From assembly GCF_032154225.1 (NCBI RefSeq), contig NZ_JALDYF010000017.1, positions 23,394 to 87,393 on the forward strand: DNA of 64,000 nt, in the 5' to 3' direction. The notes beneath the pieces were generated by a model. It was not told the DNA's origin, did no database searches, and saw only the letters and a program-made list of their open reading frames with translations. Both the position numbers and the translations under genes were made by a program. Origin of the DNA: Psychrobacillus sp. (lineage in GTDB: Bacteria > Bacillota > Bacilli > Bacillales_A > Planococcaceae). Of the stretch, positions 31,097 through 49,551 are shown in pieces (the stretch's first letter is position 1; the number at the start of each line of letters is the position of its first letter).

Positions 31097-31232
31097 TGTC
31101 TTCAGACAACTTAGTCGTGACGTAAAAGTCTACAAACAGTTATTCTTACGTTGCTTTATATTTTTTTAATACAACTAAATCGTGACCTAAATTTTCAGAT
31201 GACTAGTTTGGTAAGACAACTACTCGTGACGT
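31097..31232 (+). repeat. transposon left end with three dispersed TnsB-type sites
   Basis: agACAACTtAGTCGTGACGT (31104-31123), atACAACTaAaTCGTGACcT (31169-31188) and agACAACTacTCGTGACGT (31214-31232). Confidence 0.8.
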
Positions 31233-31464
31233 AAATATTATCAATTATAAGTTTCTCTTTAAAATGTTTAAAAAGCAAGCCCTTACCAATTCCAATATAT
31301 GTTAAGATATAGTTAGTTTTTTAACATTAGCTACTTATAGAAATGCTTAATTATTGTACAACGACAAAAGTATGTACAAAAAGACCAAGAAATTATTTAC
31401 ATTGATAACGGAGAGCTGTACTTGTAGCTTTTCGTAAGTATTTACTAAAGGAGAGAACAGAAAA

Positions 31465-32052
31465 ATGGAGTTAATAGGATTAAAACCTTTATATAGTAGT
31501 ATGATTATGCAAAATTTAAAGCGAACAAAATTCAGTGTTACTATAAATAATGCTATTTTTGAGCTTATATACTTTATTGATTCAGTTCCCCATACTTTAG
31601 CAATCGGGGTACGCAATGAAAATCTCTTCTTTATGGTTGAAGTGAAAAAAGGCTTTATCATCAATCCTTATCTGGGGAAAAAGTTCGGGTTGATCTATAA
31701 AATTTTAGGTTTATCACCAAACGGAGCATCTTCTTTTAGTCCAAAAAACTTTTACGATGAGATAAACAAAGGTATTCCATCTACTACAAGTCCAAAAAAT
31801 ACCCCTAAACCTTATGACATCGCCGCTTATAGACCAAAAGTTGAGGAATCACATAAAATTTATTTCTGCGGTTGGTTAGACAACAACGTGCGCAATGAAA
31901 AAGTTCGGCCCAAAAATCTTATTAAAACTCAACAATGGTTAGATCAAGAAGCCTATGAGATGTGTAAAAAATATAATATAAGCAGTTGTTGGTCGCCACA
32001 TAAATCAAAGGAAAAATCCATTACAAAACCTACTAGTATATTAAAAAAATGA
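31465..32052 (+). CDS. hypothetical cargo protein (195 aa)
   Basis: AAAGGAGAG RBS 9 nt before the ATG. Own terminator hairpin at about 32119-32147. No domain recognised. Confidence 0.5.
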   Translation: MELIGLKPLYSSMIMQNLKRTKFSVTINNAIFELIYFIDSVPHTLAIGVRNENLFFMVEVKKGFIINPYLGKKFGLIYKILGLSPNGASSFSPKNFYDEINKGIPSTTSPKNTPKPYDIAAYRPKVEESHKIYFCGWLDNNVRNEKVRPKNLIKTQQWLDQEAYEMCKKYNISSCWSPHKSKEKSITKPTSILKK

Positions 32053-32350: not shown

Positions 32351-34057
32351 ATGAAGTTATTGAATATGAGATTGCTTAACTATAAAAGCATTGAGGACTC
32401 TGGAGTAATAGATCTAAGTAATGGAATAAATATCTTTTCAGGAAAAAATAACTCTGGAAAAACTGCATTAATTGAGTCCCTATATTATATTGCAAATATG
32501 GAAGTAAAAGATTTGTTACCAAGCTTTTCGAATAAAACAAACTTGTATTTAGAAATATCCATTGATGAAATAGATATAAACCTTCTTAATAAAGGAACTG
32601 CCCCGGAGTACTTTATTGGTGATGCAAAAAAATTAAAAATTAATATTTCTTTTATTAATGATACTATGAGTGACTCATGTATAAATACAGTGGATGTTCT
32701 TTATGAGGACAATTATGTTCCCCTATATAAAAATAGAAGTAATGAAAAGGAAGGTAGAGCTGGTTATATTTTTAATAATAAAACGGGTGGGACTACAAAC
32801 TTTGGCGGTAGACCGCAAGCTATTGATAATTTTATGAGTCTTTTAAAAGACAGATTAGTTTTTATAAATGGCGCAAGATACGTTCCAAAAGAAGACCCAG
32901 CTAATGTTCATACTAATTTAAGTATTGATGGAACTAATCTAAATGCATTTTTGTTTACTTTACATAATAATAATGAACAAGCTTTCGATGAGATCATAGA
33001 TATGTTTAAAATAATATTTAATGATATTACCTCTATTAGTACTCCAATAGAAGGAGGTAATACATATATTAGTCTATATTTTGAAGGGAATCTTCAACCT
33101 ATTCCTTTATCTAATTGTGGAAGTGGATTTACTCATGTCCTAATAATATTATGTGTACTTTTTACCAAGGAAAGTAGAATAATTTTATACGATGAACCTC
33201 ATGTATTTTTACATCCATCAGCAGAAAAAGCGATATATGATCTTATATCTGCCAAGAAAAATAATCAATATTTATTAACAACACATTCGCCATTACTAAT
33301 TAATTATCCATTTTCTAAAAATATTTATCTTGTACAAAAGAAAATGGGGAAAAGTATTTATACAAAATTAGATAATATACAGGAAATATTATCTGATATT
33401 GGGCTAAATAATAGTGATTTTGCTTTAGCAGATAGAGTTATATTCGTTGAAGGAGAAACAGAAGAAGCAGTAATCCCATTAATTTTAGAACACTTTGGAT
33501 TTAAGCAGATTGGATATAATTATAGAATATTAAAAATGAATGGCACAGGGAATGAATTTAGCAAAAAGTCTGCAATGACAAGAAATAAAGAAAAATTAGA
33601 TTTAGTTTTAGGGGGTATAAATACAAGTCCTATACCCTACAGGATTTTAATTGATTCTGATGAGAAACCTGAAGGTAAGATTCTTGAAATCAAAGAGAAA
33701 TATGAAGATAATGTTGTAATTCTTGAGAGAAGAGAAATCGAAAATTATTTTCTCGATTGTCCAAAAGAATTATCTCTAATAATAAATAATGAGGCTGGCA
33801 GTGATACTAATCATGAGGATATTGAGCACTTCATAAATCAAACTTTCTTAGATACAGATAATAAAAAAATTTTCCCTAGAGAAGAAACTAATCCATTTAA
33901 AAATTCAGTGGGAAGTGAAGTCTTAGAACGATTGTTTTCTAACTATGATTTAACATATAACAAAATAATACATGGAACTCAACTAACAAAATTGATATTA
34001 GAAGAACAACCAGTAAAGCTAAAATTTTTGATTGATGAATTAGGAGATTTTATATGA
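32351..34057 (+). CDS. stand-alone OLD-family nuclease (ABC-type ATPase + Toprim)
   Basis: Walker A GKNNSGKTAL, Walker B ILYDEPHVFLHP, H-loop TTHSP. The Toprim region has VIFVEGETEEAVIP, ILIDSDEKP and EIENYF. No adjacent helicase. Confidence 0.7.
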   Translation: MKLLNMRLLNYKSIEDSGVIDLSNGINIFSGKNNSGKTALIESLYYIANMEVKDLLPSFSNKTNLYLEISIDEIDINLLNKGTAPEYFIGDAKKLKINISFINDTMSDSCINTVDVLYEDNYVPLYKNRSNEKEGRAGYIFNNKTGGTTNFGGRPQAIDNFMSLLKDRLVFINGARYVPKEDPANVHTNLSIDGTNLNAFLFTLHNNNEQAFDEIIDMFKIIFNDITSISTPIEGGNTYISLYFEGNLQPIPLSNCGSGFTHVLIILCVLFTKESRIILYDEPHVFLHPSAEKAIYDLISAKKNNQYLLTTHSPLLINYPFSKNIYLVQKKMGKSIYTKLDNIQEILSDIGLNNSDFALADRVIFVEGETEEAVIPLILEHFGFKQIGYNYRILKMNGTGNEFSKKSAMTRNKEKLDLVLGGINTSPIPYRILIDSDEKPEGKILEIKEKYEDNVVILERREIENYFLDCPKELSLIINNEAGSDTNHEDIEHFINQTFLDTDNKKIFPREETNPFKNSVGSEVLERLFSNYDLTYNKIIHGTQLTKLILEEQPVKLKFLIDELGDFI

Positions 34058-34098: not shown

Positions 34099-34174
34099 TA
34101 AAAAGTCTCTCAACATTATTTTTAATTCCTACATGTACTGAAAACTATTTACATGATTTAATTAAGAATAATAT

Positions 34175-35305
34175 TCAGATATATCTTCCAAATGATTCAG
34201 AGTTCCATTTAAAAATAGGATGACTTTCTATCGGGAAAATCTTCTCCATGTAATTACATGTCGTTCTAATACTATCGTGCCCCAATAAACGATGGATTTC
34301 ATATATGTCCCTATTATTTATCATAGAAATAATAGCAAAAGTATGACGAAACGTTTGTGGGCCAAGCACTATATTATCATGAGACAATAACGGTAAACCC
34401 GATCGTTTAAATTCTTTTGATAAAAACTGTGATAAATAAGACGGGGAGTATCCTTTTCCAGTAGCTGTGATAAACAAAGGAGATTCTGGATCAGCTACAT
34501 CTAAATCTTTTAAGTCACGTTCTTTCCTAAATATGAGGAGACTGTTGTATGCTTTTTCTTTTAAAGGTACTTGTCTTTGTTTATTTCCTCGTCCTATTAT
34601 TTGGAGATAGTACCCTTTTTCTTTTAAATTGTACTTCAAATCTTTGACTCTTAATCTACAAAATTCTCCACTCTGTAAGCCCGTTGCTATTAATACATGA
34701 ATAATACTGAATGTTACATAATTATTTGTTTCTCTGAAATAATCCATGAGTTGAACCACTTCATATGGTCCAAATTCACGGTTTGTCTTATTTTTTTGGC
34801 TGCCATCAATATATAAAGCATTGTGAATCGAATTATCTATATAATTATTATCATACAGGAACGACAAAAAGCTCTTAATAATACTGACTTTGCGTTCTAG
34901 CGTTGCGGTTGAGTATTTCCCTTTCCTTTTAACATAAGGACTGTTTGTAGCTAACCATTCTTGATATTTTCTTAAGTCGATAGTGGTTAGTGTCTTCATA
35001 AGGGACCTATCTACTACTGCATCTATATCAAATTCAAAAGCTTGTCCATAGCTAATCAAATGTTCGACAAAGAGAACCAACTCGTCTTTGTATATTTTAA
35101 TAGTTCGATCGCCCCTTTGTATTTTTGATTTATATAAATAGACTTGTATCATTTCTATATCATCGAGGGCTTGAGAGGTTTTAGATGCGTTAATTTCTAC
35201 TAAACTCAACTTCTTATCAAGTAAAGAGAGATCAGTTATATTCTTCACTTTAATGTTCCATTCGTTTAAAAGGATTCGACTCTTCTTATGCGATTCCATA
35301 TACAT
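34175..35305 (-). CDS. tyrosine-recombinase-fold protein with substituted catalytic positions
   Basis: Retains GRGNKQRQVPL, FRHTFA, LLGHDSIRTT and NYM (Tyr). It reads ATGLQSGE where TGLR (Arg I) is expected, and PQTFRH where HxxR is expected. Confidence 0.7.
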   Translation of the reverse strand: MYMESHKKSRILLNEWNIKVKNITDLSLLDKKLSLVEINASKTSQALDDIEMIQVYLYKSKIQRGDRTIKIYKDELVLFVEHLISYGQAFEFDIDAVVDRSLMKTLTTIDLRKYQEWLATNSPYVKRKGKYSTATLERKVSIIKSFLSFLYDNNYIDNSIHNALYIDGSQKNKTNREFGPYEVVQLMDYFRETNNYVTFSIIHVLIATGLQSGEFCRLRVKDLKYNLKEKGYYLQIIGRGNKQRQVPLKEKAYNSLLIFRKERDLKDLDVADPESPLFITATGKGYSPSYLSQFLSKEFKRSGLPLLSHDNIVLGPQTFRHTFAIISMINNRDIYEIHRLLGHDSIRTTCNYMEKIFPIESHPIFKWNSESFGRYI

Positions 35306-35383
35306 GAATTACACCTCACATAATTTTACTACTAGTACTTTCAAATATTAGGACATACAATTCTACTAGTATTTATATAGATT

Positions 35384-36328
35384 TCACACAAGTAATTCAA
35401 CCAAAAGAGAGCTGGCTATTTCTCTCTTTGGAGTCCTTTTATTATATATAAGCATTCCCGATAAGGAGTTAAAAAAGAAATTTATCAAAACTAAAGTTTC
35501 AATGGGTGTCATAATATTACTAAAAAACAACGGTCTTTCTGAAATTTCTCTAAATAAGGCTGTATTATATCCTGATAACTCCAAAAACTCTATTCCATAA
35601 AATTCAACGATCTCCTTTTTAAGTTTTTTTACATCTATTTCTGAACCTATCACAAAACCCTTTTCAACAAACAGACGATAAAAGTCTTGCGATTGAATAC
35701 TGTTATAAAGATTTAATTTTACCCTATTAAGATAAAAACTTTGTTTAGCAAACAGTTTTACATAAAACATTGTTTTTTTAGTTAACGGTTCAAAAGAAAC
35801 TTCATTTAGTTCATTCATAGCAATAGTTTTAAAACCAATTTTATGATTGGGTATATCTATTCGATCTAAAGGTATTTTATGTTCTAAACAAATGAATAGG
35901 GTAGGTAATTGATGTGATAGTCTCCAAAAAGATTCCCCTAGGGTCTTGAAATCTTTTTGAGTGCAAACTGGACAATATTTTAGATACTTGTTTTCAGAAA
36001 AAATTTTGTCAACTACGTAAGCTTCAGCTTTACCAGTACCTTTCGTCAAATACAGGGACAGCCCACCGCTAATATTTGGAGATATAAAGTTTGAAATATA
36101 ATTACACATTGAATGAAAATTTAAGAAGTACTCTATATCAGGTGCATCGAAATACTTTAGTTCATCAATAAGATATTGAATATTCTTAGGAAGAAAAGGG
36201 TTCATTTCAGTTAAATGAAGTTCGTCAATCGTTTTATTCTCATTTTTATTTAAACTTCGTTCATGATATCTTGTGTAAACACTATATAATAACTCATCAT
36301 CTTGAATAACTGGAAAGAATGTAAGCAT
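35384..36328 (-). CDS. tniQ: short TniQ-family protein (truncated TnsD paralog)
   Basis: MLTFFPVIQDDELLYSVYTRY, zinc-finger YCPVCTQKD...ICLEHKIPL and FYGIEFLEL parallel the TnsD N-terminal half. AGAGGTGG RBS. Lacks the roughly 270-aa TnsD C-terminus. Confidence 0.75.
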   Translation of the reverse strand: MLTFFPVIQDDELLYSVYTRYHERSLNKNENKTIDELHLTEMNPFLPKNIQYLIDELKYFDAPDIEYFLNFHSMCNYISNFISPNISGGLSLYLTKGTGKAEAYVVDKIFSENKYLKYCPVCTQKDFKTLGESFWRLSHQLPTLFICLEHKIPLDRIDIPNHKIGFKTIAMNELNEVSFEPLTKKTMFYVKLFAKQSFYLNRVKLNLYNSIQSQDFYRLFVEKGFVIGSEIDVKKLKKEIVEFYGIEFLELSGYNTALFREISERPLFFSNIMTPIETLVLINFFFNSLSGMLIYNKRTPKREIASSLLVELLV

Positions 36329-36338: not shown

Positions 36339-38087
36339 CTAATGATTAAAATGATTTTTCTTTTTCCATTCATTAAGCCTTTCCTGATATTGAAATTTAG
36401 TCTCAACTATCAAGAGGATAAATTCTTTTGTTAAGGGTAGTTTGTCTATCTTTTTCTCTATTAGGGACAACTTATCGATTGCTATCGCGATGTGTCGTTT
36501 CGTTAATCGAACAGGTTTATCATTTATATCTAGAGTTATTAAGTAGTTTTTTATTTGTTCTAAAATCTCTAAGTCTCTCTCATTCCAGTTAACCCTTTGA
36601 TTATTTAAATGTGCTCTTTTCAATTGAGCAGGGGAGTTATTATCTAACCACGCTTTATCATTTCTATATAACCAAGTGTAGACTTTTTTATTTGAATTTC
36701 TGAGTTCTGTTTTGGAACAAGTAGGATTTGCTTCTTTATTTGTTATCCAAATAGAACGGTAATCATGAACCATTGAGGATTTTTCCACATGTATTTTAGG
36801 ATTAAGTTCATTTTTTTGCATTTTGTAATATTTAATAACTGTCCCCACATCTACATTTAGTAATATAGCAGCTTTGCGATAACTGATTTTTTCTGTATCA
36901 ATATACTCAATTAGTTTTTTCTTCCATACCTCACCGAAATTTCTAATGTATCTGTATCTAAACTTATCTTCTGGACCACAATCAGGACCAAGTCGCTTAT
37001 ACTGAAATTCACATAGACATGTAAAAGTCCCAAGTGGTTTCCCAGTATCAGTACATCTCTCTATTTTAAGATTTGTGACAATCATTTTTTTATAATGTTC
37101 AGCAGCAGGATTAAGACAAGGGTAGGGACCTTTACCAAAAGGTCCTTCATAATTTTCCTGCTTAAATGACTCAATTTCTTTTCCCAAAAAGTTTAATAAC
37201 AACAAATGTCTTACTGGATGAAATGAAATTCTATGCTTGCGAGTAATAGTTCTCAACCAACACGATTCTTTATTTTTGGGAACCGATTGGAAGAAACTTA
37301 AAAATTCAATACCATAAAAAGAGACAAACTTTCTATATAAATCTGCTTGTCTCACCCTTCCATTGATTGTGATTAAATCTTTCTTTCTTAGTAATTCTCT
37401 GTACATCGATACTAATTGCGTAATGTCAAAGCTTAATTCATCATCCAATAGTTTTTTACTTTCAATGGCAACCTTACTTATCTGATTAATTTTGCCACTA
37501 GATATAGTACCTTTAATACACTGATTTAAAGGGGTAGGGATACAATTTTCCTTACTAGGTGAAATCAGTTTTGAATTTTTATTTCTATATAAAACTGAAC
37601 TTAAATGTAGTAAACACTTATGATCGATACAAACTAAAACACTCGGGAGCTGATGCGAAGTCCGCCAGTATGATTCGCCAAGCTTTTTTAAATCGTATTC
37701 TAAACAAGAAGGACAATATTTAAAGAACTTAGATTCTCTTACAGTACTTGCTACCTGCCCAATCGACATGTGTATATTCTTCTTTTTGGCTTTACTTATT
37801 TCTTTCATTACTACTTCTTTTTGAGTCTTTATTAGGAGATTCGTGAAGTAATAAAAAGGCGTATGTTTGTAAATTAAGGTCTCCAAACTTTTATATTCAA
37901 AGACTTCAAGTTGTTCAACCAACACTTCTAGATTTGAAGGGAAGTCGGGTGTTAATTTGGATCTTTTACCTTGAAAACACTTTTCAAGAGTATTTCTAAT
38001 ACTAATGCTTGAACCTTTAGTAAAATATCTGGCGCAAAGACTGTATATTAACTCATCATCGTATGGCTTTGGAAACCAACCAAGCAA
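36339..38087 (-). CDS. tnsD: TnsD-like target selector (TniQ domain plus C-terminal DNA-binding region)
   Basis: MLGWFPKPYDDELIYSLCARY, YCPSCLEYD...CIDHKCLL, and a C-terminal HTH-like ISYRKAAILLNVDVGTVIKY. The element sits at glmS. Confidence 0.8.
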   Translation of the reverse strand: MLGWFPKPYDDELIYSLCARYFTKGSSISIRNTLEKCFQGKRSKLTPDFPSNLEVLVEQLEVFEYKSLETLIYKHTPFYYFTNLLIKTQKEVVMKEISKAKKKNIHMSIGQVASTVRESKFFKYCPSCLEYDLKKLGESYWRTSHQLPSVLVCIDHKCLLHLSSVLYRNKNSKLISPSKENCIPTPLNQCIKGTISSGKINQISKVAIESKKLLDDELSFDITQLVSMYRELLRKKDLITINGRVRQADLYRKFVSFYGIEFLSFFQSVPKNKESCWLRTITRKHRISFHPVRHLLLLNFLGKEIESFKQENYEGPFGKGPYPCLNPAAEHYKKMIVTNLKIERCTDTGKPLGTFTCLCEFQYKRLGPDCGPEDKFRYRYIRNFGEVWKKKLIEYIDTEKISYRKAAILLNVDVGTVIKYYKMQKNELNPKIHVEKSSMVHDYRSIWITNKEANPTCSKTELRNSNKKVYTWLYRNDKAWLDNNSPAQLKRAHLNNQRVNWNERDLEILEQIKNYLITLDINDKPVRLTKRHIAIAIDKLSLIEKKIDKLPLTKEFILLIVETKFQYQERLNEWKKKNHFNH

Positions 38088-38099: not shown

Positions 38100-39734
38100 C
38101 TAAAATAGTTTATTATCCAAGAGTGGGGCTATTATTAATCCTTTTCCTACTAAGGAATCGTGAGCTGATTTCCTCTCTTTCCTACCATTATCAACAATTT
38201 TAAGAATTATATTCGATGAACGCTTATTTTTAGAATTATTATCAATTGCTTTTTTAGATGCCATACGTTCATTAATAAGAGTTAAAGCTGCCTGGACTGC
38301 CTCTTGTGGTGTGATTTCCTTATTTTCCTTAATAATTTTTTTTGCTGTCATTTCTGCCAACTTATCATTTATATCAAGATTCATTAATGTGAGAGTTACT
38401 ATTTGCAGAACAGACAAATCTTTTTGTTGCCTTTTTTCCGCTATTTTCTCTTTCTCTTTGCTTATCCTTTCTCTCATATTTATTGGGGTTTCTCTTTGCA
38501 AAAGAAAATCTTCAATATCAAAAGGGGTTATATCATCATATCTTACGATATCCTCTAATCTTCCTTCTCTTAAAGCCTTTAGCATAGGTTGCAGCATTTT
38601 CAAATATTTTTCGCCAACTATTTTTATCATGTTAGGAGAAATTTTATCATATCCTTCCTCCATTGCATAAGACTGTGCCAACATAAATAATTTAACTGCA
38701 ATATCTACTATTCCTTGGCTTTGATCATGAATTAATTCCATCCATTCTTTCGTTAACTCAACTTTCTCCTTAGTCCATTGATATGTCCACATTCTACTAA
38801 GTAAGACTTCCCAATTATCATCCATCTTCATTTGTTCCCAGATTAACTCACCATGGCCACCAGCTCTCCTAGCTTGTCGAAAATTAACTTGGAGTAATCG
38901 CTTTGCTTTAGTCGTCCCGATCAACACTATCGGAATTCCTATTTCATTTACTAAGGTAACCAAAAAATTCATCATACTACTTGAAACTTCCGACTTTGCT
39001 GTTAACATATGCTGAATCTCATCAATAACTAATACCCCTAGACAATGTGCCCTAGCTAATTGTCCTATATATATAATTAGATAACTTAATGATTCTCGTT
39101 TGTGACCCTGTTTAAAATAGTTTGTCCCTAAAGCCTCATCAATCTTTGTAATAAAATCTAAACATAACGTTTTTGGAGATCCATCATTTGGGCAGTTTAG
39201 TTTTAACCATGGTATCTGCATTATATTTAATGGGTATTTATGAATTATGACTTTAGGATAGAGAGATAGTATCCTCTCAATCGCTGATGATTTCCCCATT
39301 CCAGAAAAACCGATTATAGATAAGCTTGAAGCTGTTTTTCGAATGTCTGGTGGGAGTCCTATTGGTTCTTTTTTTTCTAATCTTCGATGCATTTCAATTA
39401 AGGTTTCAGCATGTGATTTGTTTTGAGGATTTCTATACATATACCCACTTCTTAATAATCCTGAAAAACGTGCTTCTAACGTCAATGTTTGTTCCAGTGG
39501 TTGATAAAATCGAGTTAGTCTCAAAAGTGCATGGTAACGATACTGGACGGATAGATTATTTTCTCTTTTGTCATATTCTGGGAGATAGCGTAGTTGTTCA
39601 TAAGCCTCATCAACAGAAAGCATAGGAGGAAGTGCTTCGATTAAGGGATTTCCCCGATAGTCTGGATTATCTTGTTCGGTATATTCCGCACTAATTGCAT
39701 ATTCTCCGTTTTCTAATTTAATTAGCTTTTTCAT
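38100..39734 (-). CDS. tnsC: TnsC-like AAA+ ATPase
   Basis: Walker A GFSGMGKSS and Walker B VLVIDEIQHM. The ATG overlaps the tnsB stop (ATGA). Confidence 0.85.
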   Translation of the reverse strand: MKKLIKLENGEYAISAEYTEQDNPDYRGNPLIEALPPMLSVDEAYEQLRYLPEYDKRENNLSVQYRYHALLRLTRFYQPLEQTLTLEARFSGLLRSGYMYRNPQNKSHAETLIEMHRRLEKKEPIGLPPDIRKTASSLSIIGFSGMGKSSAIERILSLYPKVIIHKYPLNIMQIPWLKLNCPNDGSPKTLCLDFITKIDEALGTNYFKQGHKRESLSYLIIYIGQLARAHCLGVLVIDEIQHMLTAKSEVSSSMMNFLVTLVNEIGIPIVLIGTTKAKRLLQVNFRQARRAGGHGELIWEQMKMDDNWEVLLSRMWTYQWTKEKVELTKEWMELIHDQSQGIVDIAVKLFMLAQSYAMEEGYDKISPNMIKIVGEKYLKMLQPMLKALREGRLEDIVRYDDITPFDIEDFLLQRETPINMRERISKEKEKIAEKRQQKDLSVLQIVTLTLMNLDINDKLAEMTAKKIIKENKEITPQEAVQAALTLINERMASKKAIDNNSKNKRSSNIILKIVDNGRKERKSAHDSLVGKGLIIAPLLDNKLF

Positions 39735-41881
39735 TTATCATTTCTTCCTTCGTTTGCAAATAATTGTTTAATTGATATTATAGATGAATTCTTCTCGTTA
39801 TTATTTTCAACTTGTATTATGGCACTAATCTTTTTTTGATTATTAATTTGTAAGTTAAATCCTTCTTCCTCACTTCTTTGAACTCGCTCTTCTCGTCTAT
39901 TATCCTTTATATTTTTCGTTCTTTTGGACTTACTTAGCGTTTTGTCCAACTTTTCCTCTTTGTTCTTATTTGCAGCTTTTACAATACTCTCGATATCAGA
40001 GTAAAAATTAAGTTCATTTTCTAATCGACTATGTTCAGTGTCTTTCATATCGTTATTTTCAAATTCTAATAGTTGATCAATTTCTTCGATAGTCTTATCC
40101 TTATATCTCACTTGATGATCTAAAAGAGTGCACGGAATAAAAAGATCCTCATCATTGGAATGTAAATAAATAACATTCAAATCTCTTGGATCATATGAAA
40201 ATTCTACCTTCCAACTTCCATCTCTCCTTGCTTTAGAAAACCATTGTTCATCGATCGCTCTAGGAGTGGTATAATACATTTTTTTATATCTAATTCCTTT
40301 TTCAGAGATAGTCACTTTATCTCGGGGTAATAAATAAAACTTTATTTTGTCGATATCATGTTTTTTAAGTTTGCCTGCAGCATTCTTTATTCCCCATTCC
40401 CAAAGCTTGATTGGTATAGGTTGGACGTTATCTTTTATTTGTTGCTCATTTCTAACATATTCTTTCATATAAAAATTATTGTTATAAAAAAGAATAAAAT
40501 TAATTAAGATTTGTGTGTATTCTTCGATATTAAGGCTTGCTTCTAGCCGATAATCTTTTGCTCCTCTCTCACCATGATCTTTGTGTACATAGCCAGGTAG
40601 AAACGGTTTGATTTTTTCTTGTGAAGTATCGAATAGTTTTTCAACTATCCCTTTCCAGTCCGGGCGATAGGGAGGGGTATTACTAATGTTAGGACCTAAT
40701 CCTTCAATCAAATGATCAACCCCGTGACTGGCTAATTCACCTCTATCACCAATGAAGTTATTTGGTAAATGCATAGACGGCCAAATATCTGTTGATATAT
40801 TTATCCCAAACTTTTTACAGTATTCTTTTTTGTCCATACAGGCATTTACTATTGCACTCATCATAGCTTTCCAAGAGGCATTTTCTAAACCCACGTAAAG
40901 ACCTACTATTAGATGTGTATACACATCTACGATGAAATAAGTGGTAGGTCGTCCGACAATCCAATTTGGGTTGAATCGATTGACTAAATATACGTTGCCC
41001 GGTGTTGCATCAATCTGATAAATATCTCCTGGTCCCTCTGTTTCCGCCGTAGAAGATCCTAATACGGCTCTATGGTTTTGTTCAAATTTCTTTAGACCTT
41101 CCCGTGCTATGGTGACTTTATCGTTTTTGTATTCTTTATTAAACCAGTAATAAAATTGCGTTTGAGAAGGTCTCTCTTCCTCCGGTTTAAGCACCAACCT
41201 TTCATTATTTGACTCGTCGAAGTATTTAAATTTTGTATAATAATCTCGGATCATCATCTTATAGGCAAAAATTAAAGATGGCTTTTTTAAGTTTAAGTAA
41301 TACTTTTTTACGGATTTAGAAAACTGTTCCTTTATTTCTGCAGTTATTATGATTCCCTTGACTCCATTCTTGTTAGGTCTTCCTGTTTTTTTCTTATATT
41401 CTTTGTCTGTATTTGTAAAATTAAAGTCTGGAAAAACTGAATCTTTCACCATTCCTCTTTGCCAATACTTTCTTATATTTTTATAAAAGGTATTTTTGGA
41501 TTTAATGTTATGCTTAATCATCGCTTCTTCAATTAATTTATAGCGATGACTCTTCTTGTAAATATCCGGTTCAATTCTTACTAAGTCTTTAATTATCATC
41601 CAAGTTTTATCTCTATGTTGAATATCTTTTTCTGTTGGCGACCTTTTTAATGCTACATTCTCATCTACTCGCAAGGTATATATTGCTGAATTGATTTGTT
41701 CTTCTATCTCCTTAGTAGTCATAATAAAAGGACTAGCATTAATAGCGGTAATATCTATTACATATGCAATTACATAACCACTATCAATCCATAAAATTCT
41801 ATATGCTTTATCTGTATCAACTTCTACAATGAGTTCATTAACTGATAGAGCTACCATAATTTTTGTTAACACTCCTTTCAT
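39731..41881 (-). CDS. tnsB: TnsB-like DDE transposase
   Basis: rve-type core: IYQIDATPGNVYLV, IGDRGELAS, and a downstream E. 716 aa. Start approximate. Confidence 0.85.
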   Translation of the reverse strand: MKGVLTKIMVALSVNELIVEVDTDKAYRILWIDSGYVIAYVIDITAINASPFIMTTKEIEEQINSAIYTLRVDENVALKRSPTEKDIQHRDKTWMIIKDLVRIEPDIYKKSHRYKLIEEAMIKHNIKSKNTFYKNIRKYWQRGMVKDSVFPDFNFTNTDKEYKKKTGRPNKNGVKGIIITAEIKEQFSKSVKKYYLNLKKPSLIFAYKMMIRDYYTKFKYFDESNNERLVLKPEEERPSQTQFYYWFNKEYKNDKVTIAREGLKKFEQNHRAVLGSSTAETEGPGDIYQIDATPGNVYLVNRFNPNWIVGRPTTYFIVDVYTHLIVGLYVGLENASWKAMMSAIVNACMDKKEYCKKFGINISTDIWPSMHLPNNFIGDRGELASHGVDHLIEGLGPNISNTPPYRPDWKGIVEKLFDTSQEKIKPFLPGYVHKDHGERGAKDYRLEASLNIEEYTQILINFILFYNNNFYMKEYVRNEQQIKDNVQPIPIKLWEWGIKNAAGKLKKHDIDKIKFYLLPRDKVTISEKGIRYKKMYYTTPRAIDEQWFSKARRDGSWKVEFSYDPRDLNVIYLHSNDEDLFIPCTLLDHQVRYKDKTIEEIDQLLEFENNDMKDTEHSRLENELNFYSDIESIVKAANKNKEEKLDKTLSKSKRTKNIKDNRREERVQRSEEEGFNLQINNQKKISAIIQVENNNEKNSSIISIKQLFANEGRNDK

Positions 41882-42746
41882 TAAAAATTATATCTGTCAG
41901 GTTTGTGTCATGGGGCTTTATTGGTTTTTCCATGTCGTATGTTTCAATATACTGGCGAGCATACAAATGTCTCATGTAATAAATACTCGAACCATCCTCG
42001 AGATTGTATAAAGAATCGAATTCACTACAACATGTAATTAACTGCTTTGTCGGATTCAACTTCAGCTCTCTGTATAAATAATCTAAGAAATGCAAACTCA
42101 TTTCTTCCTCTTGATTATTTTCAAGATAGTAATATACATGGATATATTTCATATTTTTTACAAATTGAGTCGACATGACCTTTTCATCAATTACAGACCA
42201 TTCTATATCCCTGTCTACCCAATATTGTCTTTCTATTTCTAGTTTCTCAAGGACACGAGGGTCTTCTAACTCACTACTAGGTTTTATAGAACGCGCAATT
42301 TGTATAATCTTATTGTCCACTCGGCTCGTTATAAGAAAATCAGTGGTCATAACAATATGTGTTTGAGTTGTAGTTTCAATGGAATGCTTAATGCCTTTAT
42401 CAGAAGCTATTTTTAGGGTATCCTCACGCTCAAGCGGAAATTGCTCTCTTATATCTATCACTTTTTTACTCCATTCCAAGTAATAAAAATAAGATAGTTC
42501 TAAATCAGATAGAAAATGATGTATTCTATTGGTTTTCCAACCCCTTGGCCGATGTGATCTACCTCTACTTGGCACCTCATTAATTTTCAGCCACGGTTGG
42601 TAATGATTTAATTCACCAGAACCTCTACCTTCCTTATAAAACCTAGCAATTTTTTCTTCTGTCCATGTATATTTATTTACTGACAAAATATCACCACCAA
42701 TCGACTTCTTTTCACTATTAATAACAAATATTCTGTCTATTTTCAA
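41838..42746 (-). CDS. tnsA: TnsA-like endonuclease
   Basis: GRGSGELNHYQPWLKINEVPSRGRSHR...HFLSDLELSYFYYLEW...IREQFPL matches the TnsA N-terminal catalytic pattern. The start is uncertain (TTG 42746, or TTG 42686 after GGTGGTGA). Confidence 0.8.
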   Translation of the reverse strand: MKIDRIFVINSEKKSIGGDILSVNKYTWTEEKIARFYKEGRGSGELNHYQPWLKINEVPSRGRSHRPRGWKTNRIHHFLSDLELSYFYYLEWSKKVIDIREQFPLEREDTLKIASDKGIKHSIETTTQTHIVMTTDFLITSRVDNKIIQIARSIKPSSELEDPRVLEKLEIERQYWVDRDIEWSVIDEKVMSTQFVKNMKYIHVYYYLENNQEEEMSLHFLDYLYRELKLNPTKQLITCCSEFDSLYNLEDGSSIYYMRHLYARQYIETYDMEKPIKPHDTNLTDIIFNERSVNKNYGSSIS

Positions 42747-43260: not shown

Positions 43261-45378
43261 TTGTACCTAAAGACTATCAGTTTAACAAATTTCCGGCAAT
43301 TTTCTGTAAAGGAAGATGAAACTCCAGGAATTACGGTCCAGTTTAGTCCTAAATTCAATGTAATTGTCGGAGAAAACGACTCTGGGAAAACTGCTATCAT
43401 TGATGCAATAAGATACCTTTTGGGAAGTATAAGTAATGATTTTGAAAAAATAAAGCAAGAAGATTTCTTTTGTTATGCAAAAGATAAATATACCGATAAT
43501 TTTTATATTGAAGGTACCTTTACATCGCTATCAGATAAAGAAGCTGGTCTATTTCTAGAGTGGCTCTCTTTCGATGAAAATGGGGACTATGAACTGAGAG
43601 TTTCTCTAAAAGTTGAGAGAAAAAGAAATGATAACGGTCAAGAGTATATTGATCAGAGAATTCAAGCTGGAGAAAAAAATTTCGAGTTTCGTTTAAGTAG
43701 TAAGGCTCGTGATTTATTGAAAACTACATATTTAAAACCCCTAAGAGACGCAGATACCGAATTAAAACCTGGAATTCGTTCTAGGCTGGCACAAATCTTA
43801 AAAGTCCATCCAGCCTTTAAAAAAGAATCTAGTGAAACCAATCACAGCTTAGAACAAATAATGCAAGAAGCAAATGATAAAGTCGAGGGATTTTTTAAAG
43901 AAGATTATGTTGAAGACCATTCTCTAGTATCTGATATTGAAAGTTTACTAAGTGATTTTTATGACAATAAAGATCAAAATAAGGCAAAAACTAATTTTTC
44001 AGTATCATCAACTGATCTATCTTCTATATTAAGAAAATTAAGTATCAATACTGAAGATGTTAATTTGGGATTAGGTAATATGAATCTATTGTTCATAGCA
44101 ACTGAACTTTTACTACTGAACGACTATGTAGAAAGCAGTGAGTTAGTAGGTCCCCATATCACATTGATAGAAGAGATAGAAGCCCACTTACATACACAAG
44201 CACAAATTAGATTAATTAAGTATTTGGAAGAAGAATTAGAATCAAATTCACAAAGAGCAGGTCAATTCATTTTAACCTCTCATAGCACAAATTTGGTATC
44301 TTCTATAGACCCTAAAAATATTATTTTTATACAGGGTAATGTAGCCTATCCCATGAGAAGAGAATTTTCCGAACTTGAAGATAACGATTTTGAGTTTCTA
44401 GAAAGATTCTTGGATGCTACGAAAAGTAATCTATTTTTTGCTAAAGGTGTGATATTTGTAGAAGGTGATTCAGAAATGTTGCTGATACCAGCTCTTGCTA
44501 ACTTTATTGGGTACCCACTGCATAAGTATGGAATATCTCTAGTTAATGTAAGAGGAACATCTTTTGAAAGATATATTAAGCTGTTTTCAAGATCAACTTT
44601 GTGGAAAGAATCCATGAAACTACCAAGTATCACGACTCCAATAGCAATTATTACAGACATAGATGTTAAGCCTTGGGTTTATTATGAGCAAGAAGAAAAA
44701 AACAAAGCAATTTATTCAATTTTGAACGAAGAAGAATTGGATGAATTATTGACCATTTGCAATATATCAAGAGAAAAAATAATTGAAGAAAACATTGGAA
44801 ACGAATATTCCACACTAAAAAAATTAGCAAACGACTTCAAATTTGAAATAAGTAGTCAGAATACTGACTACTTAGAAAAAATAGCAAAGAAAGAAATCAC
44901 TCCGGAGTATATTAATGCTTGTTCAAGAGATAAGTTTAGACAAATTGAGGATAAATATGAAAAGTATGATGCAAATTTGAAATTATGTATAGCCCCCCAA
45001 TGGACTTTGGAATACTGTCTTGCTTTAAGTTCACTTGCACCTATATTGTTAGAGGCTGTCCAAGAAATTCGCTACAAGAAGCCTTATGAAGGTAAACAGT
45101 ATGAAGTGTTCCAAAGTTTAATGAGTGAATTTGATAAAGGGACTCTTGAAACAGAAAAAATAGCATATGAGATTTTTAAACCTATAAATAACAAATTGGT
45201 TTCAAAAGCTGAAGTTGCACAGACACTAGCTGTTAAGTTAAATAATTTAACCAAGGAAGAGGTTAAACATATGGAATGGAAGGAAAAAATCAATTGCGAT
45301 GAAAATCTGAAATACCTTATTAATGCAATAAAACACACTTCAAGTATTATTGGAAGTGAGTCGAATGAAGATGAGTGA
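43261..45378 (+). CDS. OLD-family ATPase-Toprim nuclease, GajA-like (class 2, helicase-linked)
   Basis: Walker A GENDSGKTA, LKPLRDA, IEEIEAHLH and TSHS. The Toprim region has VIFVEGDSEMLLIP and ITDIDV. AAGGAGG RBS plus a TTG start. Confidence 0.75.
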   Translation: MYLKTISLTNFRQFSVKEDETPGITVQFSPKFNVIVGENDSGKTAIIDAIRYLLGSISNDFEKIKQEDFFCYAKDKYTDNFYIEGTFTSLSDKEAGLFLEWLSFDENGDYELRVSLKVERKRNDNGQEYIDQRIQAGEKNFEFRLSSKARDLLKTTYLKPLRDADTELKPGIRSRLAQILKVHPAFKKESSETNHSLEQIMQEANDKVEGFFKEDYVEDHSLVSDIESLLSDFYDNKDQNKAKTNFSVSSTDLSSILRKLSINTEDVNLGLGNMNLLFIATELLLLNDYVESSELVGPHITLIEEIEAHLHTQAQIRLIKYLEEELESNSQRAGQFILTSHSTNLVSSIDPKNIIFIQGNVAYPMRREFSELEDNDFEFLERFLDATKSNLFFAKGVIFVEGDSEMLLIPALANFIGYPLHKYGISLVNVRGTSFERYIKLFSRSTLWKESMKLPSITTPIAIITDIDVKPWVYYEQEEKNKAIYSILNEEELDELLTICNISREKIIEENIGNEYSTLKKLANDFKFEISSQNTDYLEKIAKKEITPEYINACSRDKFRQIEDKYEKYDANLKLCIAPQWTLEYCLALSSLAPILLEAVQEIRYKKPYEGKQYEVFQSLMSEFDKGTLETEKIAYEIFKPINNKLVSKAEVAQTLAVKLNNLTKEEVKHMEWKEKINCDENLKYLINAIKHTSSIIGSESNEDE

Positions 45379-47239: not shown

Positions 47240-47365
47240 TTTCCCCAACTGATCAACGCGAATATTGATTTTACCGAATGAAAGCTTCTGGAAATCTGTG
47301 CTTGAAGAAATATCGTGAAAATGTATTAACTAGTAATAATATGATTCCAATATGGAGGTTTATCT

Positions 47366-47827
47366 ATGAGCAAAAAAATAATTGAGCAAATGAAGAGATG
47401 GCCACGCAATTTGAGTACATCACAGGGAGGAGGGTTATCTACTTCCCAATATGGAGGGATGTCTACCTCCCAATACGGAGGCATGTCTACCTCTCAATAC
47501 GGAGGCATGTCTACCTCCCAATACGGCGGCATGTCTACCTCCCAATATGGAGGTCTTTCTACCTCCCAATATGGGGGTCTTTCTACCGCACAATATGGAG
47601 GTCTGTCCACTGCTCAATACGGTGGTCTGTCCACTGCTCAATATGGGGGCTTATCGACATCCCAAGGAGGAGGTATGTCTACCTCTTCAGGTAATGTATA
47701 CATGAGTAATATTCCACCTTGGCCAGTATTTGTAAGAGAGCTTGAGGAAAGAGGATATAATAATGAGGCTAATTTAATTCGGAGACATTTACCTGAGTTC
47801 CTTTGGCCAGAAAACTTCTTCAAATAA
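47366..47827 (+). CDS. tandem octapeptide-repeat protein (G-[LM]-S-T-[SA]-Q-Y-G x12) with short unique termini
   Basis: GGAGG 7 nt before the ATG. Repeat-unit differences are almost all synonymous. A terminator follows at 47907. Confidence 0.65.
47408..47695 (+). repeat. 12 tandem 24-bp coding repeats
   Basis: Units such as ggcatgtctacctcccaatacgga, contiguous with no spacers. Confidence 0.9.
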
Positions 47828-47906
47828 TTCCATCTAATACAAGTATCTACTCATGTTGAAAATCATTAAGCAAGAGGGACACGATAGTTAAAAAACACAC
47901 ATTGAT

Positions 47907-47937
47907 GAGCAGGTGCTACGTAGCCTGCTCTTTTTTA
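47907..47937 (+). terminator. rho-independent terminator
   Basis: gagcagg-tgctacgtag-cctgctc followed by tttttt. Confidence 0.75.
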
Positions 47938-48216
47938 TTAAACTAACGCAGCAGTTTAGTTTAAAAAGGAGAAGCACACTCTTTTGTTGAATAGAAATAA
48001 AGCACCTTTCTTTAATGAAAGGTATTGATTAAGAGGATTAATTTGTTCAATAGAATATTGGGAACGGAATATGGATGGAGAGTGATTTAAATGGGAATCG
48101 GTAATTTGGCACAAAAAGGAGTTGTAGTTATTTTTGTCGAAGTGTAGATGAAGATTAGTAATAAAAAGAAAAACAGAAAATTAGATAGTCGAGTTTAACT
48201 AAACTGGGAGAAAGTA

Positions 48217-49332: not shown

Positions 49333-49551
49333 TTAGAATGTTAATTCGTTATATTCAATCCACTTTTCTTTTTCGCGCTCTACCGCTCGGTTTTGCCATT
49401 CAAACCATACATATGCACATTCACTACAATGACTTTCTACACCACTATTATTGTGCATATCTCTACAGGTAAATAAGGTCTTTTTACGACAGTTGTAGCA
49501 ATAAATTACTTTTTCATCACTTCTTATTATCAAAATTATCGTTCCCTCCAT
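49333..49551 (-). CDS. small zinc-ribbon protein
   Basis: CYNC...18 aa...CSEC forms a four-Cys pattern. A hairpin terminator at 49282-49319 lies downstream. Alternative TTG start at 49533. Confidence 0.5.
   Translation of the reverse strand: MEGTIILIIRSDEKVIYCYNCRKKTLFTCRDMHNNSGVESHCSECAYVWFEWQNRAVEREKEKWIEYNELTF

What the first reader, a model, noticed from the sequence alone, without database searches (positions are those of the whole stretch)
34175..36328. Candidate second target-selection module: truncated TniQ paralog plus a tyrosine-recombinase-like protein lacking the first catalytic Arg
Directly after tnsD sits a 314-aa TniQ protein. It parallels only the N-terminal half of TnsD (same N-terminal motif, zinc finger and FYGIEFL block) and lacks the TnsD C-terminal DNA-binding part. 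After a 78-nt gap, on the same strand, comes a 376-aa tyrosine-recombinase-fold protein. It reads ATGLQSGE where the conserved TGLR (Arg I) is expected, and PQTFRH where HxxR is usual. It keeps the Lys, the second Arg, His and Tyr. Short TniQ proteins act as adaptors to separate DNA-recognition modules in CRISPR-associated Tn7 relatives. A catalytically inactive tyrosine recombinase (TnsF) has been described as a Tn7-family target selector. No cas genes or CRISPR array are present here. A TniQ-plus-degenerate-recombinase pathway to a second, unknown attachment site is therefore plausible, and I do not know of it being described for Bacillus elements.
Basis: partly seen in the sequence, partly recalled or inferred. 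Interest (0 to 1): 0.7.

Follow-up and report, generated by a model that had tools for sequence, protein, structure and literature searches.

The report
Tn7-like transposon's recruited degenerate recombinase
A Tn7-like transposon next to glmS in a Psychrobacillus genome carries, after its normal target-finding gene tnsD, a shortened TniQ adaptor and a plasmid-derived tyrosine recombinase with two catalytic residues lost, which is probably a second, independently evolved protein-guided targeting module like TniQ-TnsF of Tn6022, although its target site has not been found.

Summary
An 18,757-bp Tn7-like element (31097-49853) lies 25 nt downstream of glmS and is flanked by a 5-bp duplication (ACACA). 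Its operon reads tnsA-tnsB-tnsC-tnsD, then a 314-aa TniQ-only protein and a 376-aa Xer-like tyrosine recombinase ("Yrec").

- **Catalytic residues.** Yrec has Gln at Arg-I (Q211) and Gln at His-II (Q317). It keeps K242, R320, H343 and Y352.
- **Where Yrec comes from.** It belongs to a discrete Bacillales family found mostly on large plasmids. Those members keep the full catalytic set and have a conserved 11-7-11 inverted repeat just upstream of the gene. None of the 19 loci checked has Tn7 genes nearby.
- **The Tn7-linked copies.** Four known copies follow a short TniQ. They form one clade, all carry catalytic-site substitutions, and are under purifying selection (dN/dS 0.17-0.33).
- **Sister elements.** Elements without Yrec have a full-length ~495-aa second TnsD in place of the short TniQ.

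This fits a TniQ-plus-accessory-selector pathway analogous to TniQ-TnsF of Tn6022, but of independent origin and different architecture.

Two things weaken the case. Every relative whose insertion site could be inferred is also at the glmS site. No TniQ2-Yrec interaction could be tested.

Verdict: partly supported, a new variant of a known kind.

The parts
31097..31250 (.). Left end of the Tn7-like element. The terminus reads TGTCTTCAGACAACT..., followed by about three TnsB-type repeats (ACAACTnAnnCGTGACGTA). The 5-bp target duplication ACACA lies at 31092-31096.
   Evidence: the sequence was read directly
31465..32052 (+). Cargo gene encoding a DUF6037 protein.
32351..34057 (+). Cargo gene encoding an OLD-family ATPase/TOPRIM protein (568 aa), convergent with the recombinase gene. 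It is conserved in 3 of the 4 elements that carry the recombinase.
34175..35305 (-). Yrec: a 376-aa Xer-like tyrosine-recombinase-fold protein with Q211 at Arg-I and Q317 at His-II. K242, R320, H343 and Y352 are kept. Proposed DNA-recognition subunit of the second pathway.
35306..35383 (-). 78-nt intergenic gap containing the ribosome-binding site GAGGTG. No terminator was detected. One promoter-like match is present, no more than chance predicts.
35384..36328 (-). TniQ2: a 314-aa protein with only a TniQ domain (CPxC...CxxH zinc finger, FYGIEFL block). It ends just before the GPFPCLN motif where the TnsD C-terminal region begins. Its tail PKRE..SLL[VA]ELL is conserved. Proposed adaptor to TnsC.
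36339..38087 (-). TnsD (582 aa, TniQ plus TnsD domains), the glmS-site selector.
38100..39734 (-). TnsC, an AAA+ regulator.
39731..41881 (-). TnsB transposase.
41838..42746 (-). TnsA endonuclease. The likely start gives 282 aa (41838-42686). The Tn7 TnsA catalytic E, D and K residues are conserved.
43261..49116 (+). Defence cargo block lying between tnsA and the right end: Gabija GajA and GajB, an ALTTAQ-repeat protein, and Shedu SduA.
49333..49551 (-). 72-aa zinc-ribbon ORF. It is conserved directly upstream of tnsA in L087 and probably L094.
49764..49853 (.). Right end: four 20-nt TnsB-type repeats (TTTACGTCACGnTTGAGTTGT), terminus ...ATGCAAACA. The 5-bp duplication ACACA lies at 49854-49858.
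49879..51681 (-). glmS (600 aa). Its stop codon is 25 nt from the right end, so this is the attTn7-type home site.

Best explanation
The window holds an 18.8-kb cut-and-paste Tn7-like transposon at the glmS attachment site, with two target-selection modules.

**Module 1** is the ordinary TnsD, which placed this copy at glmS.

**Module 2** is TniQ2 plus Yrec.
- Yrec descends from plasmid-borne Xer-like recombinases that act on an adjacent 11-7-11 core site.
- After capture by the transposon it kept the two-domain DNA-clamping fold, but it was no longer held to its ancestral constraints, the catalytic pocket included.
- In parallel, the second TnsD paralogue lost its ~190-aa C-terminal DNA-binding region. 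It became a short TniQ with a conserved C-terminal tail.

**Proposed mechanism**
1. Yrec binds, and probably bends, a specific inverted-repeat site. This is inferred. The site is most plausibly a recombinase core site on plasmids, which would give the element a horizontal-transfer pathway in place of the absent TnsE.
2. TniQ2 docks on Yrec and nucleates TnsC. This is inferred by analogy with TniQ-TnsF and with TniQ bound to Cas effectors.
3. TnsC recruits TnsA and TnsB, which insert the element with a 5-bp duplication. This is established for the Tn7 family, and a 5-bp duplication is seen here.

**Shown here:** the anatomy, the clade-restricted substitutions, purifying selection, the tie between the short TniQ and Yrec, and the plasmid origin with a conserved adjacent site.

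**Not shown:** DNA binding, a TniQ2-Yrec contact, or any insertion made by this pathway.
For: **Element bounds and home site.** Terminal repeats, the ACACA duplication and a position 25 nt after glmS.

**Operon position.** TniQ2 starts 10 nt after the tnsD stop. Yrec follows 78 nt later on the same strand, with no terminator between them.

**Conserved order.** The order tnsABCD-tniQ2-Yrec is kept in L081, L080 and L087, at 57-86% protein identity.

**Short TniQ goes with Yrec.**
- All 4 short TniQ2 genes with known context are followed by Yrec.
- The related second TnsD genes in Yrec-less elements retain the TnsD C-terminal domain and are not followed by one: ~495 aa in L088 and L094, 408 aa as called in L089, 550 aa in L095.
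- TniQ2 aligns colinearly with the N-terminal ~300 aa of that second TnsD (43% identity) and stops before GPFPCLN.
- Its profile matches the TniQ domain within the solved Tn7 TnsD(1-318) chain, 8glu.

**Catalytic positions.**
- The hexads are QKQRHY, QRQRHY, KKLRNY and RKHRNY in the four Tn7-linked proteins.
- 70 of 71 other family members read RKHRHY.
- R..HRHY holds in 29 of 30 more distant representatives.

**No Tn7 genes near intact relatives.** This holds for the 19 loci checked.

**Clade.** The Tn7-linked copies form one clade in a neighbour-joining tree, with bootstrap 55/100 for all four and 88/100 for three.

**Selection.** dN/dS is 0.17-0.33 overall and below 0.5 in each domain, similar to TnsD at 0.21-0.23.

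**Fold.** The full CB plus CAT fold is predicted.

**Native system.** Relatives occur on 587 Bacillaceae plasmid records. A conserved 11-7-11 site lies 100-290 bp upstream of the gene in most of the 13 loci where it was found.

**No need for a resolvase.** The TnsA catalytic residues are intact.

**Precedent.** TniQ plus TnsF of Tn6022 has been shown experimentally (PMC10293859, PMC11014353).
Against: - **No copy at a second site.** The L flanks of L080 (z 5.8) and L094 (z 10.3) align in register with the window's glmS-side flank. L087 does so more weakly (z 2.6). No plasmid, phage or metagenome copy was found.
- **No interaction evidence.** The TniQ2 monomer model is poor, with pLDDT 54.
- **Catalytic changes are not specially enriched.** 4 of 6 catalytic columns changed, against 30 of 68 other near-invariant columns (Fisher p = 0.26).
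- **Some catalytic residues are kept.** Tyr and Arg-II are invariant, and the L087 protein (RKHRNY) might still be active.
- **The sample is small.** Four or five elements trace to a single evolutionary event, so the co-occurrence is one observation, not several.
- **The native core site was not found** in the window or next to any Tn7-linked copy. The cognate site is therefore unknown.
Confidence: 0.5

Rival explanations
1. Yrec is retained cargo or an accessory DNA-binding factor with no role in target choice. It could be a regulator, or a factor that interferes with plasmid recombination sites. TniQ2 would then be a truncated second TnsD that survives as a regulator or decoy for TnsC.
For: - All copies whose site can be inferred are at the glmS site.
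- Yrec has its own ribosome-binding site after a 78-127-nt gap.
- Cargo genes such as the OLD ATPase are conserved among three of the four elements to the same degree.
- Tyrosine recombinases are enriched among the cargo of Tn7-like transposons generally (PMC8649781).
- The substitutions are a broad shift rather than a specific loss of catalysis.
Against: - The truncation of the second TnsD goes with the presence of Yrec.
- Both genes are under purifying selection, at levels like TnsD.
- They lie between tnsD and the cargo, on the operon strand.
- TniQ2 has a conserved C-terminal tail.
- Yrec has no PADLOC defence-model hit.
Confidence: 0.27
2. Yrec is still a working site-specific recombinase of the element. 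It would be a TnsR-type cointegrate or tandem-array resolvase, or an invertase or excisase, acting on a site inside or beside the transposon.
For: - Tyr, Arg-II, Lys and His-III are kept in the window protein.
- The L087 protein has only His-III changed to Asn.
- Tyrosine resolvases occur in other Tn7-like clades (PMC8649781).
Against: - Arg-I is Gln, Gln or Lys, and His-II is Gln, Gln or Leu, in 3 of the 4 proteins.
- From general knowledge of the family, Arg-I substitutions abolish cleavage in lambda Int, Cre and XerD.
- TnsA is catalytically intact, so cointegrates are not expected.
- Resolvases are typical of clades that lack tnsA (PMC8649781).
- No copy of the family's 11-7-11 core site occurs in the window at up to 3 mismatches, nor in L080, L081 or L087.
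Confidence: 0.1
3. The recombinase gene belongs to a separately bounded nested mobile element or integrated plasmid fragment, or it is a decaying relic of one.
For: - Its relatives are plasmid or island genes.
- The catalytic residues are degenerate.
Against: - No flanking repeats and no core site were found around the gene.
- The junctions with tniQ2 are the same in four elements that have diverged to 57-78% identity in these two proteins.
- The ORF is intact, with dN/dS of 0.17-0.33.
Confidence: 0.05

Closest known systems
TniQ + TnsF target-selection module of Tn6022-family Tn7-like transposons (Faure et al. 2023, PMC10293859; NAR 2024 study of Acinetobacter baumannii resistance islands, PMC11014353)
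   Same: - A short TniQ without the TnsD C-terminal region is followed in the operon by a protein derived from a tyrosine recombinase whose catalytic site is compromised.
- The element is otherwise a TnsABC transposon.
- Active relatives of the recruited protein exist outside Tn7 elements. Tsy TnsF plays that part for Tn6022, and the plasmid recombinases do so here.
   Different: - **Architecture.** TnsF is ~480-500 aa with an N-terminal multi-zinc-finger region, two CB domains and only a partial CAT domain without the catalytic chamber. Yrec is 376 aa with two cysteines, one CB domain and a complete CAT domain that keeps Tyr, Arg-II, Lys and His-III.
- **Host and other selectors.** The host is Bacillota rather than Proteobacteria. 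Here the module coexists with a full TnsD, whereas Tn6022 has TnsE.
- **Target.** TnsF targets comM. The target here is unknown.
- **Origin.** It appears independent. Yrec's nearest relatives are plasmid Xer-like recombinases. Direct sequence comparison with TnsF was not done.
Dual TniQ-TnsD Tn7-like elements (998 loci in Faure et al. 2023)
   Same: One long TnsD is paired with one markedly shorter TniQ. That paper proposed that the short one works through an unidentified partner.
   Different: Here a specific, conserved candidate partner lies immediately downstream. Sister elements show the earlier state, with a full-length ~495-aa second TnsD and no partner.
Single-recombinase Xer-type systems with the site next to the gene (XerS/difSL, XerH/difH) and plasmid multimer-resolution recombinases such as Cre/loxP
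   Same: - The native relatives of Yrec have the Xer-like fold and the full catalytic hexad.
- A conserved inverted repeat with 11-bp arms and a 7-bp spacer lies 100-290 bp upstream of the gene in most loci checked.
- The structural matches are XerA, XerH, Tn1549 Int, Cre and lambda Int.
   Different: - NCBIfam XerC and XerD scores (103 and 90 bits) are far below the cutoffs (335 and 330).
- The family has a ~100-aa helical N-terminal extension.
- A divergent double-HTH_17 protein is its usual neighbour.
- The function of the native system has not been tested.
- The window protein lacks Arg-I and His-II and has no adjacent site.
TnsR tyrosine/serine resolvases of tnsA-less Tn7-like transposons (Benler et al. 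2021, PMC8649781)
   Same: A tyrosine-recombinase-family gene lies inside a Tn7-like element.
   Different: Those recombinases occur where tnsA is missing and are presumed to be catalytically active cointegrate resolvases. Here TnsA is intact, the recombinase is catalytically compromised, and it is tied to a truncated TniQ.

Membership tests
Tyrosine recombinase superfamily (Pfam PF00589 Phage_integrase) | Catalytic-domain sequence and fold, with an N-terminal core-binding domain | tested here: met
   - PF00589 scores 64.9 bits against a cutoff of 27.1.
- The AlphaFold2 model (pLDDT 80.7) matches XerA, XerH, Tn1549 Int, Cre and lambda Int at probability 1.00 over 312-387 alignment columns.
- The SAM-like N-terminal domain is below the Pfam cutoff (18.6 versus 22.3 bits).
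Tyrosine recombinase superfamily (active enzyme) | Catalytic hexad R-K-H-R-H/W-Y | tested here: not met
   The window protein has Q211 at Arg-I and Q317 at His-II, and keeps K242, R320, H343 and Y352. The other three Tn7-linked copies read QRQRHY, KKLRNY and RKHRNY.
XerC / XerD equivalogs (NCBIfam TIGR02224, TIGR02225) | Score above the curated equivalog cutoff | tested here: not met
   103.5 bits against a cutoff of 335, and 90.1 bits against 330.
TnsF (Tn6022 accessory target selector) | Gene directly downstream of a short TniQ in the tns operon of a Tn7-like element | tested here: met
TnsF (Tn6022 accessory target selector) | ~480-500 aa protein with an N-terminal zinc-finger region, tandem CB domains and a partial CAT domain lacking the catalytic chamber (PMC10293859) | tested here: not met
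   Yrec is 376 aa with only two cysteines (C216 and C350). It has a single CB domain and a full CAT domain with Tyr retained.
TnsF (Tn6022 accessory target selector) | Binds TniQ, binds the attachment site, and is required for targeted transposition | not testable with these tools
TnsF (Tn6022 accessory target selector) | Sequence homology to Tn6022 TnsF | not tested
The NCBIfam and Pfam hits are generic integrase or Xer models only.
TniQ family (PF06527), short adaptor type | TniQ domain with its zinc finger present and the TnsD C-terminal domain (PF15978) absent | tested here: met
   - PF06527 scores 48.4 bits and PF15978 has no hit.
- PADLOC models TniQ_IB and TniQ match.
- The profile hits Tn7 TnsD(1-318), 8glu, over the TniQ domain.
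- The protein ends before the GPFPCLN motif.
Tn7-like transposon | TnsA, TnsB and TnsC plus a TniQ/TnsD selector; terminal inverted repeats with several TnsB-type repeats; a 5-bp target duplication; a defined attachment site | tested here: met
   The ends are at 31097 and 49853, the duplication is ACACA, and the right end is 25 nt from the glmS stop.
TnsR-type resolvase of Tn7-like elements | Active recombinase with a res site in the element, typically in elements that lack tnsA | tested here: not met
   - TnsA is intact.
- Arg-I and His-II are lost.
- No family core site occurs in the window.

The most novel reading that the evidence does not exclude
A Tn7-like transposon of Bacillota has independently domesticated a plasmid-type Xer-like recombinase, caught at an intermediate stage in which the full fold, Tyr and Arg-II are kept but Arg-I and His-II are lost. 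The recombinase would act as a TniQ-dependent target selector that homes to recombinase core sites on plasmids. This would functionally replace TnsE as the horizontal-transfer pathway.
Probability: 0.3. Interest if true: 0.8.

Novelty: new variant of a known kind. Interest (0 to 1): 0.62.

Why it matters
**A second recruitment.** If TniQ2 plus Yrec is a working selector, it is a second, independent recruitment of a tyrosine recombinase by Tn7-like elements. That would show the TniQ "hub" captures site-specific DNA binders repeatedly, not only Cas effectors and TnsF.

**All stages are visible.** The ancestor is a plasmid recombinase with an adjacent 11-7-11 site. The pre-recruitment transposon has a full-length second TnsD. 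The recruited forms have one to three catalytic substitutions. This makes the domestication pathway proposed by Faure et al. directly testable.

**Possible applications.** A compact, protein-guided insertion system whose specificity comes from a Cre/Xer-like fold could be re-targeted using the directed-evolution methods already developed for Cre-like recombinases.

**A possible link to plasmid maintenance.** It would also tie transposon spread to plasmid maintenance sites, if the target proves to be plasmid-borne.

Tried and rejected
- **Complex prediction.** No interaction evidence was obtained.
- **TniQ2 monomer model.** pLDDT was 54 from a 10-sequence alignment, so it was not used for fold search.
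- **Right end of L080 (CP012601).** No TnsB-type repeats occur within 2.6 kb upstream of tnsA. I tried to walk further using a neighbouring hydrolase. That used the last homology search, and the exact protein was not admissible for look-up. The hydrolase is 96% identical to B. cereus-group proteins, so it is probably cargo.
- **Flank synteny.** tblastx and blastn between the flanks of L080 and L081 and the window gave only short repeated elements. The in-register junction alignment was what proved informative.
- **Copies on other replicons.**
  - Megablast of the two genes against plasmids found nothing.
  - tblastn against phages found nothing.
  - TnsC relatives on plasmids are at most 51% identical, and the two Bacillus examples inspected lack Yrec.
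  - An end-pattern scan and a Yrec scan of viral contigs found nothing.
  - A metagenome scan found only elements without Yrec.
- **Catalytic enrichment test.** Substitutions are not enriched at catalytic positions relative to other near-invariant columns (p = 0.26). I dropped the claim of a specific relaxation of catalysis in favour of a broad functional shift.
- **Defence-system reading.** Yrec has no PADLOC hit, and the L087 element lacks the OLD gene.
- **Exhaustive profile search.** At 50% clustering it found no further representative of the Tn7-linked clade.
- **Literature.** I found no paper describing this module in Bacillota.
Full report
**1. What is in the sequence**

The finding's coordinates hold two ORFs on the minus strand. 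One is a 314-aa protein at 35384..36328. Its ATG lies 10 nt after the tnsD stop and is preceded by AGGTGG. After a 78-nt gap comes a 376-aa protein at 34175..35305.

Pfam places the first in TniQ only (PF06527, 48.4 bits, residues 4-154), with no TnsD C-terminal domain. The upstream 582-aa protein has both TniQ and TnsD domains. The second protein matches Phage_integrase (64.9 bits). NCBIfam XerC and XerD scores are far below the equivalog cutoffs.

**2. The element around it**

Upstream on the same strand are tnsD, tnsC, tnsB and tnsA. Four 20-nt direct repeats (TTTACGTCACGnTTGAGTTGT) end at 49853, which is 25 nt from the stop codon of glmS (49879..51681). Inverted copies start at 31097. Both termini are flanked by ACACA (31092-31096 and 49854-49858).

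The element is therefore a bounded 18,757-bp Tn7-like transposon at an attTn7-type site.

- TnsA aligns with Tn7 TnsA (1f1z) and keeps the catalytic E, D and K residues, so cut-and-paste transposition is expected.
- The cargo is a DUF6037 gene, an OLD-family ATPase, Gabija, an ALTTAQ-repeat protein and Shedu.
- There is no CRISPR array and no cas gene.
- The source names of the identical proteins give the host as Psychrobacillus.

**3. The catalytic substitutions**

HMMER alignments to four solved chains (a fused chain of 9i5v, XerA 5hxy, XerD 1a0p, XerH 5jjv) all place ATGLQ against the xTGxR motif. They also place PQTFRH against PHxxRH.

| Catalytic position | Window protein |
|---|---|
| Arg-I | Q211 |
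| Lys | K242 |
| His-II | Q317 |
| Arg-II | R320 |
| His-III | H343 |
| Tyr | Y352 |

R217 and R219, just downstream of the Arg-I motif, also occur in relatives that keep Arg-I, so they are not a displaced catalytic Arg. An AlphaFold2 model (pLDDT 80.7) has the complete two-domain fold. It matches XerA, XerH, Tn1549 Int, Cre and lambda Int over 312-387 alignment columns.

**4. The family and its two contexts**

The protein belongs to a discrete family in Bacillales. Scores run from 226 to 565 bits and then drop to 62 bits for generic XerD.

*Members outside Tn7 elements*
- Sixteen species-representative loci with 33-50% identical members have no TnsA, TnsB, TnsC, TnsD or TniQ within the up to 10 kb of flanking DNA available on each side.
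- Three further loci show plasmid or island contexts.
- tblastn finds relatives on 587 plasmid records, mostly Bacillus and Priestia, and none in phages.
- In 13 distinct native loci a conserved inverted repeat, A[AC][AC]TAAA[CT]AAA-N7-TTT[GT]TTTA[GT][GT]T, lies upstream of the gene. In most it is 100-290 bp upstream. In pSSII-1 (L090) it is about 2 kb upstream.
- Where the upstream neighbour was examined (L082, L083, L091), it is a divergent protein with HTH_17 domains.
- This is the layout of a site-specific recombinase with its core site beside it. I infer plasmid multimer resolution or a similar role. This has not been tested.

*Members inside Tn7-like elements*
- The closest relatives are P0002 (73% identical) and P0003 (64%). 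Both sit in the same tnsA-B-C-D-tniQ2-Yrec order, in Psychrobacillus sp. NPDC093180 (L081) and Bacillus sp. FJAT-22090 (L080).
- A fourth element, L087, was found through its TniQ2 (58% identical).

| Protein | Catalytic hexad |
|---|---|
| Window | QKQRHY |
| L081 (P0002) | QRQRHY |
| L080 (P0003) | KKLRNY |
| L087 | RKHRNY |
| 70 of 71 other family members | RKHRHY |

In addition, 29 of 30 more distant 50%-cluster representatives keep Arg-I, His-II, Arg-II, His-III and Tyr. The four Tn7-linked proteins form one clade in a neighbour-joining tree. Bootstrap support is modest: 55/100 for all four and 88/100 for three.

**5. Selection**

Pairwise dN/dS for Yrec is 0.17-0.33 and stays below 0.5 in each of its three regions. 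The values are 0.25-0.33 for TniQ2, 0.21-0.23 for TnsD and 0.10-0.18 for TnsA, TnsB and TnsC. The gene is maintained and is not decaying.

The substitutions are not concentrated on the catalytic residues. Four of six catalytic columns changed (9 of 24 cells). Among other columns at least 97% conserved in the native family, 30 of 68 changed (63 of 272 cells). Fisher's test gives p = 0.26.

The fair description is a broad shift of constraints after capture, which includes the normally untouchable catalytic residues.

**6. TniQ2**

Only five short versions (314-329 aa) are known. The next relatives (43% identity, colinear over ~300 aa) are ~495-aa TnsD-family proteins.

- These occupy the same position after tnsD in sister elements that lack the recombinase: L088, L094 and, with 408 aa as called, L089.
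- The more distant L095 has a 550-aa version and also lacks the recombinase.
- TniQ2 ends exactly before the GPFPCLN motif that opens the TnsD C-terminal region. In its place it has a conserved tail, PKRE..SLL[VA]ELL.
- It is 25% identical to the co-resident TnsD, so it is not a recent copy of that gene.
- The family profile matches the TniQ domain (residues 4-158) of the solved Tn7 TnsD(1-318) chain, 8glu.

Gain of the recombinase and loss of the second selector's own DNA-binding region therefore go together. This traces to a single evolutionary event.

**7. Comparison with what is known**

Faure et al. 2023 (PMC10293859) and the 2024 NAR study of Acinetobacter baumannii resistance islands (PMC11014353) showed that Tn6022 uses a short TniQ plus TnsF to target comM.

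- TnsF is a ~480-500-aa protein with N-terminal zinc fingers, two CB domains and a partial, pocket-less CAT domain.
- An active TnsF homologue serves the non-Tn7 element Tsy.
- Faure et al. also counted 998 dual TniQ-TnsD loci and proposed that the short partner works through an unknown selector.

The present module works like that scheme but fails the architectural definition of TnsF. Yrec is 376 aa, has two cysteines and has a full CAT domain with Tyr. Its nearest relatives are plasmid Xer-like recombinases, so the recruitment looks independent.

Benler et al. 2021 (PMC8649781) describe tyrosine "TnsR" resolvases mainly in clades that lack tnsA. That reading fits poorly here. TnsA is intact, Arg-I is lost, and the family's core site is absent from the window and from L080, L081 and L087.

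I found no paper describing this module in Bacillota.

**8. What weakens the interpretation**

I could not find a copy at a second site.

- The sequence just outside the left end of L080 aligns in register from the junction with the window's glmS-side flank (z 5.8, 0 of 300 shuffles reached the score).
- The Yrec-less sister L094 does the same (z 10.3). L087 does so weakly (z 2.6).
- L081 and L089 abut a different sequence that carries a tandem ACATTAnnGTTnnTAAC motif of unknown meaning.
- The right ends of L080, L081 and L087 lie outside the DNA I could fetch.
- No related element with this module turned up in plasmid, phage, viral or metagenome collections.

With only three or four chromosomal copies this is weak negative evidence. 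Chromosomal Tn7 copies are also expected at the home site.

No TniQ2-Yrec contact could be assessed.

**9. Verdict**

The best explanation (confidence about 0.5) is a second, TniQ-dependent target-selection module. Its DNA-recognition subunit is an independently recruited, partly degenerate, plasmid-type Xer-like recombinase. Its target is unknown, and a plasmid recombination site is the most attractive guess.

The main rival (about 0.27) is a retained accessory DNA-binding protein with no role in targeting, next to a truncated second TnsD. An active resolvase (about 0.1) and a nested element or relic (about 0.05) are disfavoured.

I rate it a new variant of a known kind, with interest 0.62.

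Noticed in passing
window 43261-49116: A defence block lies between tnsA and the right end: Gabija GajA and GajB, an ALTTAQ-repeat protein with 24-nt repeats, and Shedu SduA. In L087 (and probably L094) a small ORF sits directly upstream of tnsA instead. The L087 ORF is homologous to window 49349-49518. The block therefore looks like an insertion into a cargo bay near the right end.
   Followed up: partly
window 49333-49551 (-): A 72-aa CxxC...CxxC zinc-ribbon ORF lies next to the right end. L087:1-170 is 85% identical to it at the DNA level. It has no Pfam hit and its function is unknown.
   Followed up: partly
L001, L002, L004-L007, L012, L013, L015, L084, L090, L091 (upstream of the recombinase genes): A conserved 11-7-11 inverted repeat, A[AC][AC]TAAA[CT]AAA-N7-TTT[GT]TTTA[GT][GT]T, lies upstream of the intact plasmid or island recombinases. 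It is 100-290 bp upstream in most loci. In the loci examined it sits between the gene and a divergent protein with HTH_17 domains. It is probably their core recombination site. I could not find this recombinase system described.
   Followed up: partly
L080:17213-17249; L081:13276-13312 and 15495-15511; L089:12504-12520; window 20600-20616: A 17-nt motif, ACATTAnnGTTnnTAAC, occurs just outside the transposon left ends in three relatives, as a tandem pair in L080 and L081. It also occurs once in the window, 10.5 kb from the element. It could be an operator or the end of another element that shares this hotspot. It remains unexplained.
   Followed up: partly
L080:830-2600; L089; window 47938-47970: Repeated units of ~100-150 bp, each ending in a hairpin, separate small ORFs upstream of tnsA in L080. 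Short matches recur elsewhere. They look like REP- or MITE-type repeats.
   Followed up: no
window 20517-20564 and 30938-30980: A ~45-nt direct repeat (CAACTAnCTCnnAAACCCATAnTnTACGATAAATAAAnAGAAT) lies upstream of two minus-strand genes 10.4 kb apart. One copy is immediately outside the transposon's left end.
   Followed up: no
L092, L093 (B. cereus-group megaplasmids): Tn7-like elements with TnsC 49-50% identical to the window's are common on B. cereus-group plasmids. They carry an arsenic-resistance operon upstream of tnsA and a single TnsD, with no recombinase.
   Followed up: partly
L087:9315-10487 (-): In this relative the convergent gene after the recombinase encodes a 390-aa protein with Sigma70_r4 and TnsA-like N-terminal endonuclease domains, in place of the OLD ATPase.
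   Followed up: no
P0226 (protein only): A distant 351-aa family representative has a degenerate catalytic pattern, KDARHF. It may be another inactivated homologue. Its genomic context could not be looked up.
   Followed up: no
L095: A metagenomic relative (TnsB 69% identical) has tnsD encoded divergently from tnsA. After tnsC it has a 550-aa second TnsD and then an OLD-family ATPase on the same strand. OLD ATPases recur next to the selector genes in this lineage.
   Followed up: partly
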